The notes below the pieces were generated by a model. That model had not been told where the DNA came from. It saw only the letters and a list, made by a program, of their open reading frames with translations, and did not search any database. Positions 417 through 60,300 of a stretch of DNA of 64,000 nt are shown piece after piece. The translations under genes were made by a program, and so were the position numbers. The DNA comes from a virus. Location of the stretch: IMG/VR virus record IMGVR_UViG_3300029989_000006; one strand, 5' to 3'. Within the stretch, counting starts at the first letter, position 1. Every line of letters begins with the position of its first letter.

Positions 417-599
417 ATGGGATTTTCAATTATTTTATGTGAAATTTTGTTACTTTGTTCTTTGGGATTATTTTTATCATTTGTAAAAGATACAAGCACT
501 CCCCCAACTCACCAAACTTGGATATTTATATCTATCTTAAAATTTATAGGTATTATTATTATTGCATTTATTTCATTTATATTAGGTCATGTTTTCTAA
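417..599 (+). CDS. small membrane protein (2 TM)
   Basis: Two hydrophobic stretches; operon context. Confidence 0.55.
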   Translation: MGFSIILCEILLLCSLGLFLSFVKDTSTPPTHQTWIFISILKFIGIIIIAFISFILGHVF

Positions 600-861
600 T
601 AAAATTTCAAAAGAAAAAGAGTTATTAATTAGACTAGCAACTGATAAGAATGGAAATATAAAATTTAAATCTAAATTATTATATAATAATCCTTATTTAT
701 ATTCTTCTAATGAGGACTTACGTTATTATTTATGGATGATTGAATTAAGTATTTATATTGGGGATAATTTAGACTGTTCTTCAATTCATTGTTCATTTGA
801 TGTATTAAATATTAACAAATTAGAAAATGAATTATTGTATATAATAAATAAAATTAAATGA
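589..861 (+). CDS. hypothetical protein
   Basis: ORF ends in TGA overlapping next ATG (ATGA). Confidence 0.6.
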   Translation: MFSNKISKEKELLIRLATDKNGNIKFKSKLLYNNPYLYSSNEDLRYYLWMIELSIYIGDNLDCSSIHCSFDVLNINKLENELLYIINKIK

Positions 862-1214
862 TAGAGGCATTTTTATTAATTTGCATTCATTGGATTGCAG
901 ATTTTGTTTGTCAAAATAAGAAATTGGCTACTAGTAAATGGAATAGTTTTGATAAACTGACAGATCATACAGTTATTTATAGTGTGGTATTAGGATTACT
1001 AGTTTTTATAGTTCCTGTATTACAATTTAAAAATATTTCTGCACTGTTTTTATTTATAAGTTTAAACCTAATTCTTCATACTATAATTGATTATTTTACA
1101 AGTAAAATTGTGCATAAGAAATTTGAAAATAAACAATATGGTGCATTTAGAGTTATAGGATTTGATCAGGTATTACATTATGGATGTTTGTTTTTTACCT
1201 ATTCAATTTGTTAG
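858..1214 (+). CDS. DUF3307-like membrane protein
   Basis: HWIADFVCQ, H-x-IIDY and GFDQVLH motifs. Confidence 0.75.
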   Translation: MIEAFLLICIHWIADFVCQNKKLATSKWNSFDKLTDHTVIYSVVLGLLVFIVPVLQFKNISALFLFISLNLILHTIIDYFTSKIVHKKFENKQYGAFRVIGFDQVLHYGCLFFTYSIC

Positions 1215-1222
1215 ATATAAAT

Positions 1223-1294
1223 GATAAGTGGGGTGGTTGTATCACTTTTTGTCTGCAAAACAAAGTAAAAAGAGTTAGATTCTCTTACTTATCT
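1223..1294 (+). tRNA. tRNA-Cys(GCA), atypical
   Basis: Acceptor gataagt/acttatc, anticodon arm tttgt-CTGCAAA-acaaa, T arm aagag-TTAGATT-ctctt, U73. Confidence 0.75.
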
Positions 1295-1322
1295 CAGAGA
1301 TTATTAATTTAAAAATTTAATT

Positions 1323-2081
1323 ATGTTTAAAATTATTTGGCCTTGGAGTAAAACTTCAAAGGAAATGCAAGAGTTTCAAGAGTGGAAAGAAAAAAGATCA
1401 GTTGAAAATAAAAATCCTGAGATGATTGTAATGGATCCTAATGGAGAATTAAGTAAAGATTATCTTTATGATTTTCTAGGATGGGAAGCTAGTTATGGTA
1501 ATTATAACCGATATTCAGAAACTATTTTTGCACCAGGTTCTCCTCAACTAGAAGCTCTTAAAATGAAGATTACAGTTAAACCAATAGATGTTGTAAATCA
1601 ATTGGAAACTGCTCCAACATTTTTTGATTTAGCTTGTATTGAGGAAAAAATTCAACTTGTTCTTTCAAAAAAAGAATTGATTAATAATCAATATTCTAAA
1701 AGAGAAGTTAATGGATTATTAGAATGTCTTGAAAATAGAAAAAAATATACTGAATTTAAAGAATATTTTGAGGGATTTCAAGTCACTACTGATGAAAAAA
1801 TTGGAGAAGTTTTGGATAAACATTTATTAGTCCGCAAAGCTGTTGAAATTTTCATTCCTGATTTCCCTGTTGAAGCTATAAAAACAATGCAAACTTATAC
1901 TGATAAAGTGATGGAAGTTTGTGGTAAAAAACCTATTTTTTATGTTATTGCAGAAGATGATAACTTTAAGAAAGCATATGGAAAAAGAGATCCAATTCTT
2001 TTAGCTCAAAGTCCATTTGGTTTCTATTGGTATATTCTCGGTGCATGGGATAAAGAGATGTTACTTCTTTCTGAATTTTAA
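1323..2081 (+). CDS. conserved phage hypothetical protein
   Basis: 252 aa ORF; C-terminal DPILL...W.ILGAWD motif. Confidence 0.75.
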   Translation: MFKIIWPWSKTSKEMQEFQEWKEKRSVENKNPEMIVMDPNGELSKDYLYDFLGWEASYGNYNRYSETIFAPGSPQLEALKMKITVKPIDVVNQLETAPTFFDLACIEEKIQLVLSKKELINNQYSKREVNGLLECLENRKKYTEFKEYFEGFQVTTDEKIGEVLDKHLLVRKAVEIFIPDFPVEAIKTMQTYTDKVMEVCGKKPIFYVIAEDDNFKKAYGKRDPILLAQSPFGFYWYILGAWDKEMLLLSEF

Positions 2082-2090
2082 GATTTTATT

Positions 2091-2510
2091 ATGAAAATTT
2101 TATTTTGTATTTTACTTTTATTCTGTACAATAACAATGGCAGAAGTAAAAGTTATTAAACTTCCTATAAAAGAGAAATTAAAAAAATCTCTGGTTGTAAC
2201 TGCAACTACTTATACTATAAAAAACCGTAGTACTATTGATTTTTATACGAAAAGTGGTTTTAAAATAACTAAAACAAATCCAAAACTGGATAGAGTTATT
2301 GCTGTTAGTCATGATTTAAAGAAACTCTTTAATTATGGTGATTCAGTGTTGATTCAAGGTATTGGAAAACATAGTGGTGTTTATTATATAAGAGATTTAA
2401 TGGATTCAAAATGGAAAAATAGGATTGATATTCTATTAAATCCTAATGATTTATTAATAACTTATTACAAAGTAAAAATTATTTTAATGAATAAAAAAGA
2501 GGTACAATAA
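2091..2510 (+). CDS. 3D-domain (MltA/RlpA-like double-psi beta-barrel) protein with signal peptide
   Basis: N-terminal hydrophobic segment; VTATTY, IAVSHD, Y..RD, RIDI motifs. Confidence 0.75.
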   Translation: MKILFCILLLFCTITMAEVKVIKLPIKEKLKKSLVVTATTYTIKNRSTIDFYTKSGFKITKTNPKLDRVIAVSHDLKKLFNYGDSVLIQGIGKHSGVYYIRDLMDSKWKNRIDILLNPNDLLITYYKVKIILMNKKEVQ

Positions 2511-2525
2511 GTACCTCTTACAAAT

Positions 2526-2597
2526 TCTCCTATGGCAAACAGGTGTAGGCAACGCCCTTTTAAGGCGTGGGGCAAGGATCGTTACCTTGTAGGAGAA
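2526..2597 (+). tRNA. tRNA-Lys(TTT)
   Basis: Acceptor tctccta/taggaga, anticodon arm acgcc-CTTTTAA-ggcgt, T arm caagg-ATCGTTA-ccttg. Confidence 0.9.
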
Positions 2598-2611
2598 CAA
2601 ATATTTAAACT

Positions 2612-3028
2612 ATGAAGAAAGCAATTTTTAAGCTAAACGGAGGACAAGGTGCATTACTCTGTTCTCAATGTCATGTTATCATTACAACAGGAAGATATTT
2701 TACAGATAAACAATGGTTAGCAGCGAAAGGAGAAATTAAATTACCTCCACAATTCTGTGATAGATGTACAAGTAACCATTTATATAAGAAATTAGAAGAT
2801 AAAGTTTATAAATATCCTACTAAAAGTAAATATGGTTTTCATAATGATGAATTAGAAACTCTTTTAAAAGATTATCCTGATATTAATATGGATAAATTTA
2901 ATGAAGCCATGATGGGTAATACCTGTATGATAGATGAAGGAGGAGTAATTATGTATCATTGTGATATATTTGTCGCTTTAAAATGTGGAATAGAAAACAG
3001 AGAATTAACTATTGAAGAATGGGACTAA
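2612..3028 (+). CDS. hypothetical protein with N-terminal CxxC..CxxC zinc-binding domain
   Basis: CSQC...FCDRC; domain paralogous to 51000..51182. Confidence 0.7.
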   Translation: MKKAIFKLNGGQGALLCSQCHVIITTGRYFTDKQWLAAKGEIKLPPQFCDRCTSNHLYKKLEDKVYKYPTKSKYGFHNDELETLLKDYPDINMDKFNEAMMGNTCMIDEGGVIMYHCDIFVALKCGIENRELTIEEWD

Positions 3029-3128
3029 TTATGGAAGAGAAAAAATGTGCAAGTTGTAGAATGATACACTTATTTATAGTGTGTCCATTTTGTGGATCAA
3101 TTGTATCTATTCCTATGGAAGATTGAAA

Positions 3129-3488
3129 ATGAAAATTTTAAAATTTGAATGGGATAATGCTATTGGCTGTGAATGGAATGGTAAAAGTGTTTTAATAGGC
3201 CAATATTTACCAAATAGGGAAAATAATGAAATCTCACATATAGAGATTTATGGTTTTGCTTTAAGTATAGCAGATATAAATAAAGATTTTCAATTACATG
3301 AATATTCTTGTTTTGGTGGTAATATTTGCGGTGAAGTATCTGAGATTTCAAAAGAAGATGCAAGAAAATTATTGTATGAAGAAATTGATAAATCTTTAAA
3401 TATTTTATTTGATCAAGGTGAAATGAATATGATTAATCAAAAACTTAACGTCGCAGAATCAGTTTATGAAGATAACGATGAAGATTGA
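3129..3488 (+). CDS. hypothetical protein
   Basis: ORF; ATG at 3129 preferred; TGA stop. Confidence 0.6.
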   Translation: MKILKFEWDNAIGCEWNGKSVLIGQYLPNRENNEISHIEIYGFALSIADINKDFQLHEYSCFGGNICGEVSEISKEDARKLLYEEIDKSLNILFDQGEMNMINQKLNVAESVYEDNDED

Positions 3489-3690
3489 AAACTATTAATA
3501 ACTTAAAATGGATTCGAGTGCCATTGCGAAAATGTCCCTACCGTAAGTAAACACTGATGTCGACAATTAACAGAAGTTTAACTCGGAGGAAATCTATAAC
3601 ATATAAGGATTAGAAATCTAATATGAAAGAAGAAAGTACAGAACATAAGACTTTAATGGGGATTATGTACGGGAGAGTTATTAATAGTTT
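3489..3690 (+). ncRNA. candidate structured ncRNA closed by a 15-bp perfect stem
   Basis: aaactattaataact (3489-3503) is the exact reverse complement of agttattaatagttt (3676-3690); non-coding interior with hairpins. Confidence 0.5.
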
Positions 3691-3698
3691 AAATTAAT

Positions 3699-3776
3699 AG
3701 GAATGTATTCCCTCTGCCTGATAAGCAGTAGAAAGGATAATTTGGTTACATATGGGTTCAAGTCCCATCTTTCCTA
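3699..3776 (+). ncRNA. rearranged tRNA-like RNA, GAT (Ile) anticodon loop, no D arm in normal position
   Basis: Acceptor aggaatg/ctttcct, ctgc-CTGATAA-gcag, T arm atggg-TTCAAGT-cccat. Confidence 0.6.
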
Positions 3777-3941
3777 CACTCGTGTTGCCCTACCTCGGGC
3801 ACGTATAAAATAATAGATTCTAATAAGCAACCTAGTTGAGGCTTCGTGAACGTTTTGATAATATTCACCAGCACGTACTGGAAAAAAATTATCCACATAT
3901 CCTATTATAGGCCTTAGTAAAACTATAATGAGGATATACAT

Positions 3942-4012
3942 GGAGATAGCCTGGTGGCACGCCCTGATAGGGTTTTACTAGTTGTTTGAGGTTCAACTCC
4001 TCTTTATCTCCC
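3942..4012 (+). ncRNA. aberrant tRNA-like RNA (GAT-containing loop)
   Basis: Perfect acceptor ggagata/tatctcc, T arm gagg-TTCAACT-cctc, gccc-tgata-gggt hairpin. Confidence 0.5.
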
Positions 4013-4032
4013 AAATATTAATAAAATTTAAA

Positions 4033-4302
4033 ATGAGTAAACATTTAATTTATGATTTAATGGAAGCATGTTCTGGAGTTAATGAACTTCGACATGCAAT
4101 AGTAGTAATGAAAGAACTTGGTATCACTTATCAACATCGAACACCTCAAACAATGGGAGAATGTTGGTGGTTTTGGAATTGTGAAAATTTACCAGAAAAA
4201 TTACCAAGTTATTTAACACCACTTGATCTTGACCCAATGGAATGTATTGGATATGGATTAAGTCAAGAAGATGCAGAAAAGATACGTGATTATAAATATT
4301 AA
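4033..4302 (+). CDS. hypothetical protein
   Basis: ORF; ATG at 4033 after A-rich leader. Confidence 0.65.
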   Translation: MSKHLIYDLMEACSGVNELRHAIVVMKELGITYQHRTPQTMGECWWFWNCENLPEKLPSYLTPLDLDPMECIGYGLSQEDAEKIRDYKY

Positions 4303-4376
4303 ATCTCATGATGGCAGGACGTGTATAGCTGGCAATTGTCCAAGTTAGAACCTTCGGGTACTATGCGTGGGATTTA
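4300..4376 (+). ncRNA. candidate small structured RNA
   Basis: Closing stem taaatctcatg/cgtgggattta with G-U pairs; inner ggac/gtcc stem; C(UUCG)G tetraloop hairpin. Confidence 0.5.
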
Positions 4377-4382
4377 TTTAAT

Positions 4383-4457
4383 GCATAAGTGCTCGAGTGA
4401 TCCAAGAGGACGGTCTCCAAAACCGTAAAACCGTGAGTTTGAATCTTACCTTATGTG
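4383..4457 (+). tRNA. tRNA-Trp(CCA)
   Basis: Acceptor gcataag/cttatgt, anticodon arm acggt-CTCCAAA-accgt, G73. Confidence 0.9.
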
Positions 4458-4482
4458 CAATTATTTATTAAAAAATTATGTT

Positions 4483-4899
4483 ATGAGTTATCAAAAATTT
4501 GAAACTGTTGAAAGTAAAATTAATGAAGTTATTTCTACTTTATATGGAGATGAATTTCAAGTTCCTGAATTGCAGGATTCATTAAAAGCTGTTGGATGTC
4601 CTTATGCTTTAGTCATACCACCAATTTTGAAAAAAGCGGGAGTCATAAAAATGGATGGTGTAACTAAACTTTCCAGATTTGTAGTTGAAAGAATTAATTA
4701 TTCTGTCATAAAAGATTTATTTGAAGAAGCAATTCAAGTTTATCAGCATAAGTCTAAAAATATAAATCCATCTGTATATGAAGAAAAGATTATACAAGGA
4801 GAAAGAACTGCAGATGAAGATAGAGCTATAAAACTATTAAAATCTTTAGGTTATATTATTCAAAAAAAGATTATCACTGAATCAATTATAGAAATATAG
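4483..4899 (+). CDS. hypothetical protein
   Basis: ORF; ATG at 4483. Confidence 0.65.
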   Translation: MSYQKFETVESKINEVISTLYGDEFQVPELQDSLKAVGCPYALVIPPILKKAGVIKMDGVTKLSRFVVERINYSVIKDLFEEAIQVYQHKSKNINPSVYEEKIIQGERTADEDRAIKLLKSLGYIIQKKIITESIIEI

Positions 4900-4905
4900 T
4901 TTTAA

Positions 4906-4980
4906 GGGTCCTTAGCTTAGTTTGGTTAAAGCAAATCCCTCATAAGGATGAGAGCCACAGTTCAAGTCTGTGAGGGCCCA
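4906..4980 (+). tRNA. tRNA with CAT anticodon (Ile2-like or elongator Met)
   Basis: Acceptor gggtcct/agggccc, atcc-CTCATAA-ggat, canonical D and T loops; GGG start resembles Ile2. Confidence 0.88.
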
Positions 4981-5258
4981 CTAATTTTTAAAATAATTAA
5001 TAAAATGGAAAGACTTCAAAAAATTCAAAAAATTGTTATTCAGATGATGTATCTTTTGGATTAGATGTAATAGTTAAAGTTTCTTTTGTTATACCAAAAG
5101 GATACACTTCAATGACTCCAGATGAACTTATTAAGGACTGGTTCCAAAGACATCATTTAACATTAGAAGGATATAGCCATGCTTTTAGAGATGGATCAAT
5201 GGTTGGGAACTCTGAAGAAATTATTGATGTAACAATTATTAATAAAGAATAAAAAATT

Positions 5259-5373
5259 AACTAATTTACAAATAGTATAAATCTGAATTATTATGTAGGT
5301 GAAACACCTTCCTGAGTGCAAGGATAAAAATAATAAAGATAATCATAATTATCTAAGATATTGTAAATTAGTT
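5259..5373 (+). ncRNA. candidate structured RNA closed by a 13-bp stem
   Basis: aactaatttacaa/ttgtaaattagtt; inner aggtg-aaa-cacct and tcct/agga hairpins. Confidence 0.45.
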
Positions 5374-5380
5374 TTAAAAT

Positions 5381-5454
5381 GGGGTCGTAGCTCAGTTGAT
5401 TAGAGTATCACACTTGCAATGTGAATGTCAAGGGTTTGAGTCCCTTCTTCTCCA
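5381..5454 (+). tRNA. tRNA-Ala(TGC)
   Basis: G3:U70, tcaca-CTTGCAA-tgtga, T arm aaggg-TTTGAGT-ccctt, A73. Confidence 0.88.
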
Positions 5455-5473
5455 CAAACTAATAATAAATCAC

Positions 5474-5620
5474 ATGGAAAAAGTAATGATTGCAATAGTT
5501 CTATTATGTGGATTACTCTATATAATAGGAAAAGTTAAAGAGTGCAGTGATAATCCAGAATATGAAGCATGGATTACGCAGGACAAAGCAAAATACCCAG
5601 AATTATATAAAAAGAAATAA
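5474..5620 (+). CDS. small membrane protein
   Basis: ATG 5474; N-terminal hydrophobic helix; TAATG coupling. Confidence 0.55.
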   Translation: MEKVMIAIVLLCGLLYIIGKVKECSDNPEYEAWITQDKAKYPELYKKK

Positions 5621-5835
5621 TGGATGAAATAAAATTAGAAGATTATTGGACAAAGAAGTTTCCTAATGGACATTTGCCTTCTTATGCTAAAGAAATGATG
5701 CTTGAATTTGCATCAGATATTCTTCAATTAGCTACTGAAAATGCCTCAATAAAAACTGAAGTATGTATGGGAGTTGTAATAGATCATAATATTGACAGAG
5801 ATTCTATTCTTAACACAATAAATCAAATAGAATGA
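5620..5835 (+). CDS. hypothetical protein
   Basis: Coupled ORF, ATGA overlap. Confidence 0.6.
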   Translation: MDEIKLEDYWTKKFPNGHLPSYAKEMMLEFASDILQLATENASIKTEVCMGVVIDHNIDRDSILNTINQIE

Positions 5836-6251
5836 AAAATTTATTTGTACCATATGAATTAGCTTTAAAGCTAAAAGAGAAAGGATTTAATGAACCTTGT
5901 TTTGCTGTATATGTGAGACATAAATTACTTATGATTGGTCAACCAAATGATCTTCAAATTTATACTACTGAAGATTTTGAAGATGATATAAAAAGTGAAG
6001 ATATTATTGCTCCTCTTTATCAACAAGTAACAGATTGGTTTAGAGAGGAACATAATATACATATTCATATATCAAGAATGTATTGCTATGTAGGAGATAA
6101 GCCAAGAACCTTCGATGGTTGGTGCGTCTATATTGATAATGGGGTTGAAGATTCTGATTTAGAATGTAATTCCATATTCATTAAAATGTTCTATCCTACT
6201 TATTATGAAGCTTTAATAAAGGCTATTGAAGAAGCATTAAAACTTATTTAA
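5832..6251 (+). CDS. phage hypothetical protein
   Basis: LALKLKEKGF...APLYQQVTDWFRE motifs; paralog at 88..414. Confidence 0.7.
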   Translation: MKNLFVPYELALKLKEKGFNEPCFAVYVRHKLLMIGQPNDLQIYTTEDFEDDIKSEDIIAPLYQQVTDWFREEHNIHIHISRMYCYVGDKPRTFDGWCVYIDNGVEDSDLECNSIFIKMFYPTYYEALIKAIEEALKLI

Positions 6252-8164: not shown

Positions 8165-8251
8165 GTCTCGGTTGCCTTAGTTGGTCGAAAGGTCTAGGCT
8201 GTTAACCTAGTGAGTTTTACTCCACCGTGGGTTCGAATCCCACCCCTGACT
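8165..8251 (+). tRNA. tRNA-Asn(GTT) with long variable arm
   Basis: ctagg-CTGTTAA-cctag, variable hairpin gagt/actc, T arm gtggg-TTCGAAT-cccac. Confidence 0.82.
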
Positions 8252-8253
8252 CT

Positions 8254-8351: not shown

Positions 8352-8436
8352 GGTAATTGTAGCCGGTAATGGTCTCCGAACAGATTGTGGTTCTGTAATG
8401 CGAAAGCTAATGCGGGTTCGAGTCCCGTCTTTTACC
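8352..8436 (+). tRNA. tRNA-His(GTG) with long variable region
   Basis: G-1:C73, acaga-TTGTGGT-tctgt, gc-GAAA-gc variable hairpin, T arm gcggg-TTCGAGT-cccgt. Confidence 0.85.
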
Positions 8437-8451
8437 CTAAATTTTAAATAA

Positions 8452-9131: not shown

Positions 9132-9187
9132 TGCGAGGTAGCTCAGTGGTAGAGCGATTGTCGGGCGTTCGATTCGTTCCCTCGCTA
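9132..9187 (+). ncRNA. tRNA-like RNA lacking the whole anticodon arm
   Basis: tgcgagg-TA-gctc-AGTGGTA-gagc-gattgtc-gggcg-TTCGATT-cgttc-cctcgct-A. Confidence 0.75.
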
Positions 9188-57334: not shown

Positions 57335-60300
57335 TGTATTTCTAAATTATTGTTTTTAATTTGTTCTGACATTCATTCACGGAAATTGGTTTCAAATAAA
57401 ATTAAACTTTCATTTCCTATTTCATGAGAGAGTCTGGGAAATCTTGATTCCATAGTAGTATTTAATATAGAAAATATATTTGAATCTTCTGTTATTGGTT
57501 CTAATTCTAATTTTATTAAAGCACTATTTATTGCATTGCTAAATGATTTATAATCAATAATATTTTCAATTCCAAGATTAATTTTATTAGTTAATTTATT
57601 AATTAATTCTTCTTCTAATTCAGATAAATCTTCTGTTTTAGAATTAGAAAGTAATTTATAATTTTGTAATACTTCTTCATATGTATTTTTACTTAAATCA
57701 TTGTATTTTAATGCAATAAAAAATAAATGTAAATACTCATGAATAATATTTTGTTTACCAGAATTAAGATTTGCAGTATTTATAACCAATCTTTGTCCTT
57801 GTTCATTAGATTCTATTCAAGCCTGTTTAGATTGAAGATCAGTATTATATACATGATCTACATCAATATTAAAAATTGTTGAAAATCTTTTAGTTAAATC
57901 TGAAAGTATAATTCTATTTCTAGCAATAATATCCTCAGGAGAATTATTATTTTCACCAATTTTAAGATCTAATTTTTCTAATTTTGATCCAATTTTACGA
58001 TTTCCTTTCTTTGCATAAATTCACATTATATCATTAGAATTTTTAGGAATAGTTTTAATTACTGTTAGAATTTTACCCCTGTGTGAAAATGTATTAAATT
58101 CTATAGTAATGTTATCAGCTGAAGCAGAAGTAATTTGATATAATTTGTTTTGAGAAACCATATTTCCATCAACTGTCTTAGCTAATACAATATACGCTCC
58201 AGGTTGTAATAATTCTCTTTTTTGTTCAGTTTTTTCCTGAAAATTAGAATTATACAATGCTTTATTAAATCTTTGATAATAACCTCTTTCTAAAGTTTTT
58301 ACATATAATCCAGTTCCGTTAATATTTCGTTTAAAATTAATTGCATTAATTAAATCCTCAGTAACATTAGTGTATCCTTCATAGTCTTTTGGATTTTTAT
58401 TATATATTTCTTCTGCAACAAGTGTTCCTATATTTAATTGTCCACTTGGCATTAACAAAGCTGTCTGAAAATCTAAATTACTTGGGATAAAACATAACAT
58501 TGAAGTTTTATCTTCTCCTTCATATAAAGTCTGTAAAAATAAATTATTATATTCTATATTTTCAATAGCAGAACTTCTACTAATATCACGTGTAGTAATA
58601 AAATTAGTTCGTTTTGATAAATCATTATCTACTAAATATTCATTTATTGGCATTAAAGTTTTTTTATCAAAATTAATCATTGCTAATAAATTTTTATCTT
58701 TATTTAGTATTTGATAAATTTGATTATATTCAACTCCTTCATTAGTTTGCTTTGGTATTATAACAAAGTCTCCTTCTGAACTTAATTCAAAATTATCAAA
58801 ACTTGAATAAGAAAATTTAGCTGGAGATTGATCTTTTGCAATTCTATTTGCAAATTCTGACATTTCTTGAAATACTTCTCTAGTAACCTGTGGTTTTTTT
58901 CTATAAACATTTACTACAGAATCTCTACTAATTGCTTCAGAATAATATTTATCATTTCTTTTTACTAATATATAAATTGATTTTTCATCATCACTTATTC
59001 CAAGAACTTTATTATATCTTCTTTTACCTTTTTCATCAATATGAAGTATATAATCAGATGAATCAATAGGAACTTGAGGATTTCTTCTTAATTCTATTGC
59101 ATCATAATTTTTTAATGTCTGAACTTTTTCTTCCCATGTTTGGTCAGTAAATTCATCTTCAAATGCATTTTTATGTGTTATTAGAGTTGTAATTCTATCT
59201 AAATTAACATATGGATTTTCTAATAATACATCTTGTTTTTCACCAGTATAAACTTTATTAAGCAATAATTTAGAAGGAGAAACATCTTTAATAGTATTTC
59301 AATAAGTTTTTACCTCAGTTTGTTTAGCCCCATTCTTTATTTTTTCTTTTCTAGTTTCACTTTGGACTCTACCACCTCTTACTGCGCTAGATAAAACTAA
59401 TGATTTAGGTAAATATTCACCCTTATTTGCTTTTATAACAATTGAATCATTTGAATTTATTTCATTTGCTTCAGTAGTATTTAGTATTTTAGTTCCTTTA
59501 GCTAATTTTCTAAATTTTATTTCTCCTAAATATATTCTGTCTGTGGCAATTTTAATTTTTCCTTCACTATTATAAAATCCTCTAATTTTTATTCTATCAT
59601 CCTCTATATCCACATCAACAGGAACAATATATCTTGTATAATCCTCTTTTTTAGGAATTAATATTAAATCTTGACCAAGACTTAGATTGGATTTTATAAA
59701 ATTAACCATAGATTCTAAATCTGTAAAATCTTTAGAAGTTTCTTGTGGTGAATAATAATCATCCTTTTTTTCTAGATACTTCTGAATCTTTATTCCCTTT
59801 TGAGTTAAAGTAGATTTTAAATAATCATCAGATATTTTACCATATTCCTCTGATGCTTCTTTATTTTTATCTACTCAATTTGTTTCTCCTAAATTAAAAA
59901 TTTGTTTTAAAAGTAAATCAAATTGTGTATTTAAAAGGAATTTTGAACCAGTTATTATATTTACTAAATCAGCGTAAATGGCATCTCTATTAGGATTTTG
60001 AGATAAACTGTCTAAAATTGGATTCTGAAATTCTAAATTTTCATTTTCTCCAATAAATTTTCCAATAAAAAATTCTTCTGGAGTATATTCTTTAGTTATG
60101 CCATATTTTAATAAAACATTTGATAAATTTTCTTTAGACATTAAAGATCCCTGATGTTTAAAAATTCCATAGAACATAGAGAGATAATTATTTTTATCAT
60201 AAACTATTGTTGGATCTTCTGTTCCATTATTTATTACAGTAGCTTGATTTTGATCAAATTGTCCTGAAATAAATATTTTCTTATGTTTTAAAGGTCCTTT

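What the first reader, a model, noticed from the sequence alone, without database searches (positions are those of the whole stretch)
3699..3776. Rearranged tRNA-like RNA with a D-loop-like sequence 3' of the anticodon arm
Seen: acceptor, T arm and a CTGATAA (Ile GAT) anticodon hairpin are recognisable, but only 8 nt separate the acceptor from the anticodon stem, so there is no D arm. Instead 23 nt follow the anticodon arm, including a D-loop-like AATTTGGTTA. Extra pairings (atgta/tacat, tcc/gga) wrap around the anticodon hairpin. Inference: a topologically permuted tRNA in which the GG elbow contact comes from the variable-arm position; it could be a non-canonical decoder or a mimic.
Basis: partly seen in the sequence, partly recalled or inferred. 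Interest (0 to 1): 0.7.

Follow-up and report, generated by a model that had tools for sequence, protein, structure and literature searches.

The report
Phage isoleucine tRNA with rewired D-arm
This 78-base gene in a crAss-like gut phage most likely encodes a working isoleucine tRNA that has every standard tRNA part, but with one D-stem strand and the D-loop placed after the anticodon arm instead of before it. More than 140 distinct phage genes share this layout, gene finders mostly miss it, and I found it described in no paper.

Summary
Window 3699-3776 (+) has a 7-bp acceptor stem, a 4-bp anticodon stem with loop CUGAUAA (GAU, Ile) and a normal T arm. Only 8 nt lie before the anticodon stem and 23 nt after it, including AAUUUGGUUA.

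It is not a degenerate cloverleaf. The same layout recurs in 142 distinct sequences from IMG/VR contigs, three GenBank phages and 28 genome contigs. All four helices covary, and the UCC/GGA helix around the anticodon arm is paired in 100% of cells.

My reading is that the D-stem strands are swapped around the anticodon arm and the D-loop (A14, R15, G18G19, A21) follows the second strand.

Evidence for a real decoder:
- Members lie in tRNA arrays, always co-oriented with their neighbours.
- They carry anticodons that the canonical tRNAs of the array lack.
- Anticodon class tracks synthetase identity bases. Ile has U20 and A73. Arg has A20 and mostly G73.

This 172-kb, 29% GC phage has no canonical tRNA-Ile(GAU).

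ARAGORN overlapped 2 of 173 copies, and Rfam's tRNA model reached threshold for 2 of 20. Charging and 3D fold are untested.

This scan reported the same family earlier in at least eight other genomes. I found no paper describing it.

The parts
3699..3705 (+). Acceptor stem, 5' strand (AGGAAUG)
   Evidence: Pairs with 3769-3775. All 7 pairs show changes on both sides in the family.
3706..3707 (+). U8 A9 equivalents
   Evidence: Invariant TA in 49 of 49 members collected with a pattern that did not fix these bases.
3708..3711 (+). Strand equivalent to canonical 22-25: U, then helix A 5' strand UCC (3709-3711)
   Evidence: 3709-3711 pairs with 3735-3737. It is 100% paired and 3 of 3 pairs show double changes. 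RNAalifold recovers the helix unaided.
3712..3713 (+). C (26-like) and U (27-like)
   Evidence: Nearly invariant. In four variant members U.U becomes C-G. The C-G(3731) pair is inferred.
3714..3728 (+). Anticodon arm: stem CUGC/GCAG, loop C32 U33 G34 A35 U36 A37 A38. Anticodon GAU at 3720-3722.
   Evidence: Rfam alignment. 4 of 4 stem pairs covary. C32, U33 and A37 are invariant.
3729..3734 (+). Linker U-A-G-A-A-A between the anticodon stem and helix A 3' strand
   Evidence: GAAA was invariant in members collected with a pattern that did not fix it. Its role as an A-bulge at the junction is inferred.
3735..3738 (+). Helix A 3' strand GGA (equivalent to canonical 10-12), then U (13-like)
   Evidence: Covaries with 3709-3711.
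3739..3748 (+). Displaced D-loop AAUUUGGUUA (A14 A15 U U U G18 G19 U20 U A21)
   Evidence: Conserved across the family. Indels occur only before GG and after GG-N. Base 20 tracks the anticodon class.
3749..3751 (+). CAU connector to the T stem (last U is 48-like)
   Evidence: Nearly invariant in members collected with a pattern that did not fix it.
3752..3768 (+). T arm: AUGGG / UUCAAGU / CCCAU
   Evidence: Rfam alignment. The outer pairs covary.
3769..3777 (+). Acceptor stem 3' strand CUUUCCU, discriminator A73 (3776), C74 (3777). The rest of CCA is not encoded.
   Evidence: The canonical tRNAs of the window have the same N73-C end and the same AT-rich leader.

Best explanation
Window 3699-3776 is a functional elongator tRNA-Ile(GAU) gene of a crAss-like phage with a rewired D-domain.

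Layout. After U8 A9 the chain runs straight into the strand that corresponds to canonical 22-25, then into the anticodon arm. After the anticodon arm come a UAGAAA linker, the strand that corresponds to 10-13, the D-loop (A14...G18 G19...A21), a 3-nt connector and the T arm. Put another way, the block 10-48 is circularly permuted inside an otherwise ordinary tRNA.

Fold (inferred). Helix A (3 bp plus a conserved U.U) stacks on C26-G44, U27.U43 and the 4-bp anticodon stem. That gives the same roughly 10 stacked layers as a normal D stem plus anticodon stem. G18 G19 can then dock on the T loop to form the L shape.

Function (inferred). The RNA is made from the phage's tRNA array and trimmed like its neighbours. 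Its CCA is completed by the host, and the host IleRS charges it through GAU, A37, A38, A73 and U20. It then reads AUU and AUC, which are about 5.7% of all codons in this 29% GC genome.

Shown: the four helices, the conservation, the array context, the anticodon complementarity, and the link between anticodon class and identity bases.

Inferred: the 3D fold, processing, charging and decoding.
For: 1. Structure. In 49 distinct homologues 96% of cells are paired, against 69% in shuffles and 38-50% with slid partners. The covariation score is 0.705 against 0.188 (0 of 500 shuffles reach it). Acceptor 7 of 7, helix A 3 of 3 and anticodon stem 4 of 4 pairs show double changes. RNAalifold finds the same helices unaided.

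2. A discrete family. The R1 model gives 106 matches of at least 55.9 bits. Ordinary tRNAs of the same loci score at most 39.3 bits.

3. Context. 149 of 173 members have another tRNA within 1.5 kb, and 818 of 818 such neighbours are on the same strand. The window copy has the same leader and N73-C end as its neighbours.

4. Complementarity. Among 44 distinct tRNA-rich loci, a canonical GAU tRNA accompanies a permuted GAU in 3 of 19. It is present in 18 of 25 loci without a permuted GAU (Fisher p=0.00027). For UAU the figures are 0 of 18 against 9 of 26 (p=0.006).

5. Own genome. There are 26 ARAGORN tRNAs and none is Ile(GAU) or Ile(UAU). Ile is 8.4% of codons, of which ATT plus ATC are 67%.

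6. Identity bases. Of 142 distinct members, Ile anticodons have U20 in 109 of 110 and A73 in 110 of 110. Arg anticodons have A20 in 20 of 20 and G73 in 15 of 20. This matches the bacterial identity sets in PMC9976931 Table 1.

7. Anticodon loop. C32, U33 and A37 are invariant.
Against: - There is no expression, charging or structure data for any member.
- The minimum-free-energy fold of the single sequence is no better than shuffles (z=0.03).
- The tertiary contacts (U8-A14, A15-U48, G18/G19 with the T loop, C26-G44) involve invariant bases, so covariation cannot test them.
- The minor E. coli IleRS determinants C4-G69, U12-A23 and C29-G41 are not present in this copy.
- The acceptor stem has a U.U at 6-67.
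- The members were collected with sequence patterns, so part of the apparent invariance is ascertainment. Each half was checked with a pattern that fixed only the other half.
- The loci are related to each other, so the Fisher p-values overstate independence.
Confidence: 0.8

Rival explanations
1. It is a tRNA mimic or decoy. The RNA folds like a tRNA but is not used in decoding. It might soak up or mislead a host tRNA-targeting nuclease or another tRNA-binding defence protein, or serve some other non-translational role.
For: The core is non-canonical, and gene finders miss it. In the one cultured bacterium that carries a member, the small tRNA array sits next to an HD/P-loop kinase-like gene and an RNA ligase gene. 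That hints at a link with tRNA damage. Phage tRNAs that resist host anticodon nucleases are an established theme (my own knowledge, not tested here).
Against: A decoy would not need to fill exactly the anticodon that the canonical set lacks. It would also not need to keep synthetase identity bases matched to its anticodon class. The anticodon loop keeps all decoding features. Canonical and permuted Ile tRNAs sit side by side in the same arrays.
Confidence: 0.12
2. It is a decaying tRNA pseudogene: an ordinary tRNA-Ile gene that lost its D arm and gained junk in the variable region.
For: The Rfam tRNA score is only 32 bits. ARAGORN gives no call. There is a U.U mismatch in the acceptor stem. 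One relative (L075) does look like a truncated remnant beside a putative endonuclease ORF.
Against: The same 'defects' are conserved base for base in 142 distinct sequences from very different phages, with compensatory changes in every helix. The window copy scores 92.6 bits on the family model, in the upper half of members.
Confidence: 0.03
3. It is a precursor that is cut and rejoined into a canonical cloverleaf, as happens with the circularly permuted tRNA genes of the red alga Cyanidioschyzon.
For: Permuted tRNA genes that are restored by processing exist in algae (cited in PMC10085705). RNA ligase genes occur near one bacterial member.
Against: Here the 5' and 3' acceptor strands are already at the ends, so circularisation cannot restore the order. 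Restoring it would need two internal cuts and two ligations. No conserved partner enzyme lies near members: the recurrent neighbours are only homing-endonuclease-like ORFs.
Confidence: 0.03

Closest known systems
Canonical bacterial and phage tRNA-Ile(GAU) (Rfam RF00005)
   Same: 7-bp acceptor stem, A73, a 5-bp T stem with UUCAAGU loop, and a 7-nt anticodon loop with U33, GAU, A37, A38. It has U8 and a D-loop sequence with G18 G19, and it sits inside a tRNA array.
   Different: There is no D hairpin between positions 9 and 26. The strand that pairs with the 22-25-like strand, and the D-loop, lie 3' of the anticodon arm. The anticodon stem has 4 Watson-Crick pairs plus U.U.
D-armless mitochondrial tRNAs, such as metazoan mt-tRNA-Ser(AGY) and nematode mt-tRNAs (PMC7609411, PMC4013460)
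   Same: A short connector lies between the acceptor and anticodon stems, and there is no D hairpin in the usual place.
   Different: Those tRNAs have truly lost the D-loop and its GG, are flexible, and need adapted partner proteins. Here all D-arm parts are kept and relocated, and the molecule is full length (about 77 nt).
Circularly permuted tRNA genes of Cyanidioschyzon merolae (Soma 2014, cited in PMC10085705)
   Same: The order of tRNA segments in the gene differs from the cloverleaf order.
   Different: There the whole molecule is permuted in the gene and processing restores a canonical tRNA. Here only the internal block 10-48 is permuted and the mature RNA is expected to keep that order.
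Non-circular permutations of hammerhead and twister ribozymes (PMC10085705, NAR 2023)
   Same: A natural RNA keeps its 3D parts while the order of the strands changes in a way that is not a simple circular permutation of the whole molecule.
   Different: A different RNA class. That paper states that no such permutations were known in natural RNAs before it, and it does not report a tRNA case.
Allo-tRNAs with 8/4 or 9/3 acceptor/T branches (PMC5389517)
   Same: Non-canonical tRNAs found in metagenomes and phages, often with a UAU anticodon.
   Different: Allo-tRNAs change helix lengths but keep the cloverleaf order. This family keeps the 7/5 lengths and changes the order.

Membership tests
tRNA (Rfam RF00005, canonical cloverleaf) | Score at or above the curated gathering threshold | tested here: met
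   32.0 bits against 29. Only 2 of 20 other members reach the threshold.
tRNA (Rfam RF00005, canonical cloverleaf) | 7-bp acceptor stem with discriminator, and a 5-bp T stem with a U54 U55 C56 R57 A58 loop | tested here: met
tRNA (Rfam RF00005, canonical cloverleaf) | Anticodon arm with a 7-nt loop, U33 and purine 37 | tested here: met
   Loop CUGAUAA. The stem has 4 covarying pairs plus U.U.
tRNA (Rfam RF00005, canonical cloverleaf) | D hairpin (stem 10-13/22-25 closing the D-loop) between position 9 and the anticodon arm | tested here: not met
   Only 8 nt lie there. Rfam deletes the D arm. The pairing partner lies 3' of the anticodon arm.
Phage tRNAs with a permuted D-domain (model R1 built here; no published name found) | Full-length match to the family covariance model, well separated from ordinary tRNAs | tested here: met
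   92.6 bits. Members score at least 55.9 bits and ordinary tRNAs at most 39.3 bits.
Phage tRNAs with a permuted D-domain (model R1 built here; no published name found) | A covarying 3-bp helix enclosing the anticodon arm, followed by UAAUUGGN-type D-loop sequence | tested here: met
   UCC/GGA at 3709-3711 and 3735-3737, then UAAUUUGGUUA.
Functional tRNA-Ile (bacterial identity set, PMC9976931 Table 1) | A73, G34 A35 U36, A37, A38, U20 | tested here: met
   All are present in the window copy. Family-wide, U20 is in 109 of 110 and A73 in 110 of 110.
Functional tRNA-Ile (bacterial identity set, PMC9976931 Table 1) | Minor E. coli determinants C4-G69, U12-A23, C29-G41 | tested here: not met
   The window has A4-U69 and U29-A41. 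The helix A middle pair is C-G. These determinants were defined in E. coli, and their weight in Bacteroidota is unknown.
Functional tRNA-Ile (bacterial identity set, PMC9976931 Table 1) | Aminoacylation by IleRS and decoding of AUU/AUC | not testable with these tools
   Needs charging assays or tRNA sequencing.
D-armless mitochondrial-type tRNA | Loss of the D-loop and its G18 G19 elbow bases | tested here: not met
   A complete D-loop consensus is present at 3739-3748 and conserved.

The most novel reading that the evidence does not exclude
This is a natural class of fully functional tRNAs (Ile, Arg, and Met or Ile2) whose core is built with a different strand topology: the 10-48 block is circularly permuted. 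That would show that the cloverleaf order is not required for charging, EF-Tu binding or ribosomal decoding. The class would have spread among phages by duplication and anticodon shifts. The rewired D-domain may also make these tRNAs blind to host or phage factors that recognise the canonical D arm, such as tRNA nucleases or modification enzymes. I put that last part at about 0.2 on its own.
Probability: 0.7. Interest if true: 0.9.

Novelty: new variant of a known kind. Interest (0 to 1): 0.85.

Why it matters
The cloverleaf order of tRNA is among the most conserved features in biology. Known exceptions lose arms, as in mitochondria, or change helix lengths, as in tRNA-Sec and allo-tRNAs. A widespread tRNA that keeps every part but joins them in another order would matter for several reasons.

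- It would show which features synthetases, EF-Tu, RNase P and the ribosome truly read: 3D position rather than chain connectivity.
- It would give tRNA engineers a new scaffold.
- It would explain apparent gaps in phage tRNA sets. In this phage, Ile(GAU) is missing from the canonical set.
- It exposes a blind spot in ARAGORN, Rfam and tRNAscan-based annotation. The isolate Kehishuvirus 'tikkala' is published with 24 tRNAs, and this gene is unannotated in its record.

The idea is directly testable, because one cultured phage-host pair and one cultured bacterium carry a member.

Tried and rejected
- **Ordinary degenerate cloverleaf.** Rejected. There is no room for a D hairpin, and the long-range helix covaries.
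Rejected. No compensatory change; G7 covaries with the acceptor partner instead.
- **Single-sequence thermodynamics.** Uninformative (z=0.03).
- **First any-anticodon pattern.** It had a spacing error and found nothing. Corrected after a local check.
- **Conserved protein partner.** I clustered ORFs within 3 kb of 150 distinct members. Only homing-endonuclease-like and unknown ORFs recur, in at most 28 of 150 loci.
- **Neighbouring tRNA-like RNA at 3942-4011.** No homologues by blastn against GenBank phages or by a pattern scan of viral contigs. Left unresolved.
- **L075 as a split or intron-bearing member.** No 5' half found. It is probably a remnant next to a putative endonuclease ORF.
- **Tertiary pairs by covariation.** Not possible, because the bases involved are invariant.
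- **Origin from a canonical phage tRNA-Ile.** The canonical Ile tRNAs in the same loci are too diverse to point to a parent.
- **Literature.** Eight full-text searches and five papers read gave no description of this layout. The library lacks most subscription journals, so absence is not proof.

Full report
**What is at the site.**
Window 3699-3776 (+) reads AGGAAUG UA U UCC C U CUGC CUGAUAA GCAG UAGAAA GGA U AAUUUGGUUA CAU AUGGG UUCAAGU CCCAU CUUUCCU A. Rfam's tRNA model matches end to end at 32.0 bits (gathering score 29). It aligns the acceptor stem, anticodon arm and T arm. It deletes the D arm (4 nt in place of 15) and opens a 19-nt insert in the variable region. ARAGORN finds 11 tRNAs in the window but not this one. 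The gene lies in a 493-nt gap between + strand ORFs, inside a co-oriented tRNA array.

**It is a conserved family, not a wreck.**
- blastn found the element, unannotated, in three GenBank phages: Kehishuvirus 'tikkala' (an isolate on Bacteroides cellulosilyticus), crAss-like cr130_1 and bajarodcaudo virus 1.
- Two pattern scans of IMG/VR fixed different halves of the molecule.
- The contigs range from crAss-sized to jumbo phages above 300 kb.
- A covariance model built from 49 distinct copies (R1) separates members from ordinary tRNAs of the same loci. There are 106 matches of at least 55.9 bits, and ordinary tRNAs score at most 39.3 bits. The window copy scores 92.6 bits.
- In all I counted 142 distinct member sequences.

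**Secondary structure.**
On the 49-sequence alignment the proposed four helices are 96% paired. Shuffles give 69% and slid partners give 38-50%. The covariation score is 0.705 against 0.188 (0 of 500 shuffles reach it). Double changes occur in 7 of 7 acceptor pairs and 4 of 4 anticodon-stem pairs. All 3 pairs of the helix that encloses the anticodon arm also show them, and that helix is paired in 100% of cells. In the window this helix is 3709-3711 with 3735-3737. RNAalifold recovers the same helices without guidance.

**Topological reading (inference from sequence and textbook tRNA structure).**
- After U8 A9 the chain enters the strand that leads directly into the anticodon stem. That is the direction and place of canonical 22-25, then 26, then 27-31.
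- The partner strand comes after the anticodon arm and a conserved (U)WGAAA linker.
- That strand is followed at once by U-AAUUGGUYA. This is the canonical D-loop consensus A14 R15 Y16 Y17 G18 G19 N20 (N) A21.
- Indels in the family fall only before GG and after GG-N, the two places where normal D-loops vary in length. The window copy has one extra U before GG.
- Counting stacked layers gives U.U + 3 bp + C-G + U.U + 4 bp = 10. That equals a 4-bp D stem + 26.44 + a 5-bp anticodon stem. Four variant members shift the register but keep the same count, and they turn U27.U43 into C-G.
- The block 10-48 is therefore circularly permuted, with new ends at 21|22.
- The three new junctions are 9 to 22, 44/45 to 10, and 21 to 48. 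They join residues that are neighbours in the known tRNA fold, through the triples 9-[12-23], 45-[10-25] and 21-[8-14]. This last point rests on my knowledge of yeast tRNA-Phe and was not computed here.

**Evidence that it decodes.**
1. *Array context.* 149 of 173 copies have another tRNA within 1.5 kb, and all 818 such neighbours are on the same strand. The window copy has the same AT-rich leader and the same N73-C end as the canonical tRNAs around it.
2. *Anticodon range.* Anticodons are restricted to UAU, GAU and CAU (Ile, and Met or Ile2) and to ACG, UCU, UCG, CCU and GCG (Arg). Several phages carry two or three members with different anticodons.
3. *Gap filling.* In 44 distinct tRNA-rich loci, a canonical GAU gene accompanies a permuted GAU in 3 of 19. 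It is present in 18 of 25 loci that lack a permuted GAU (p=0.00027). For UAU the figures are 0 of 18 against 9 of 26 (p=0.006). The loci are related, so these p-values are optimistic.
4. *Identity bases.* Ile members have U at the position after G18 G19 in 109 of 110 and A73 in 110 of 110. All 20 Arg members have A there, and 15 of 20 have G73. A20 is the main ArgRS determinant, and A73 and U20 belong to the Ile set in bacteria (PMC9976931 Table 1). This is hard to explain unless the displaced loop sits where a D-loop sits and the RNAs are charged.
5. *Anticodon loop.* C32, U33 and A37 are invariant.

**This phage.**
- The window is bases 102614-166613 of a 172,188-bp IMG/VR record, 28.9% GC and rated complete.
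- Its DNA polymerase is closest to crAss-like phages, at 35-37% amino-acid identity.
- It reads TGA as a sense codon. ORF coverage rises from 102 kb to 151 kb and the longest ORF from 849 to 2900 aa, and it carries a tRNA(UCA).
- ARAGORN finds 26 tRNAs. None is Ile(GAU) or Ile(UAU), and Phe and Ser are also absent.
- Ile is 8.4% of codons: ATT 60%, ATC 7%, ATA 33%.
- R1 finds one member in the genome.

**Distribution outside viral contigs.**
One scan of 185,579 species genomes gave 28 stretches. Of these, 27 are on MAG contigs, and many of those are phage-sized. One has the same length, 362,763 bp, as an IMG/VR contig. The remaining stretch is in the chromosome of the isolate Ohtaekwangia koreensis DSM 25262. 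There a UAU member (76.9 bits, one C.A mismatch in helix A) sits in a small Asn-[member]-Lys-Pro-His array. That array lies beside an HD plus P-loop kinase-like gene, an RNA ligase gene and a WYL regulator.

**Detection.**
ARAGORN overlaps 2 of 173 copies, and one of those two is miscalled as Leu. RF00005 reaches its threshold for 2 of 20 sampled members. The K. 'tikkala' paper reports 24 tRNAs by tRNAscan-SE, and its record leaves this gene unannotated.

**Why the rewiring exists is open.**
No partner protein recurs nearby. Canonical and permuted Ile tRNAs coexist in the same arrays. Possibilities include a near-neutral alternative fold that spread as a gene cassette, altered bending at the D/anticodon junction where the AAA bulge lies, and escape from factors that read the canonical D arm.

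**Prior knowledge.**
Eight full-text searches and five papers read gave no description of this layout. A 2023 paper on permuted ribozymes states that non-circular permutations were previously unknown in natural RNAs, and it reports no tRNA case.

The scan's own notebook shows the same family reported from at least eight other genomes, with the same reading. I had recorded my reading before seeing those notes, and I tested the claims I reuse here.

**Verdict.**
It is most likely a working tRNA-Ile(GAU) with a permuted D-domain (0.8). Charging and 3D fold remain to be shown.

Noticed in passing
window 3942-4011 (+): A second tRNA-like RNA lies 165 nt downstream. It has an 8-bp acceptor stem, a 4-bp T stem with loop UUCAACU, and a long composite hairpin whose tip reads CUGAUAG (GAU again). 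It has no clear D arm. Rfam's best match is tRNA-Sec at only 18.8 bits, and ARAGORN gives no call. The fold has z=-2.1.
   Followed up: partly
window 9132-9187 (+): A 56-nt tRNA-like RNA with an acceptor stem, a normal D arm (GCUC AGUGGUA GAGC) and a T arm, but no anticodon arm at all. RF00005 scores it at 38.7 bits with the 15-nt anticodon arm deleted.
   Followed up: partly
whole genome G000 (window = C1:102614-166613); tRNA(tca) at C1 complement 60008-60081: The phage recodes TGA as a sense codon. ORF coverage rises from 102 kb to 151 kb and the longest ORF from 849 to 2900 aa when TGA is read as W. TGA makes up 43% of Trp-position codons in long ORFs. A tRNA with anticodon UCA is encoded outside the window.
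   Followed up: partly
window 8165-8252 and 8353-8437 (+): tRNA-Asn(GUU) of 88 nt and tRNA-His(GUG) of 85 nt have long extra arms, which is unusual for these isotypes. The genome also has normal-length Asn and His tRNAs elsewhere.
   Followed up: no
window 3489-3690: About 200 nt of non-coding sequence lies directly upstream of the permuted tRNA. Another first-stage note describes it as closed by a 15-bp terminal stem. I did not examine it.
   Followed up: no
L201 (Ohtaekwangia koreensis DSM 25262, NZ_FUZU01000001.1) 511-6201: A bacterial mini tRNA array (Asn, permuted Ile-UAU, Lys, Pro, His) is flanked by three genes: a WYL/WCX regulator fused to a PhyH domain, an HD plus AAA_33 kinase-like protein, and an RNA ligase (PF09414). 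It looks like a tRNA supply and repair island.
   Followed up: partly
L188:3719-3812 (-) and L075:7414-7480: Two variants of the family. L188 carries a roughly 14-nt hairpin insert in the T-loop region (94 nt in total, 67.7 bits). L075 keeps only the 3' half of a member directly after an ORF that looks like a homing endonuclease, so it is probably a disrupted copy.
   Followed up: partly
L107:8847-8926, L125:2954-3034, L095:7910-7989, L189:2060-2138: A subgroup of the family has a shifted register. Helix A has 2 bp, and the anticodon stem is extended with C-G in place of U.U and a G.A layer. The AAA bulge and the total number of stacked layers are unchanged.
   Followed up: partly
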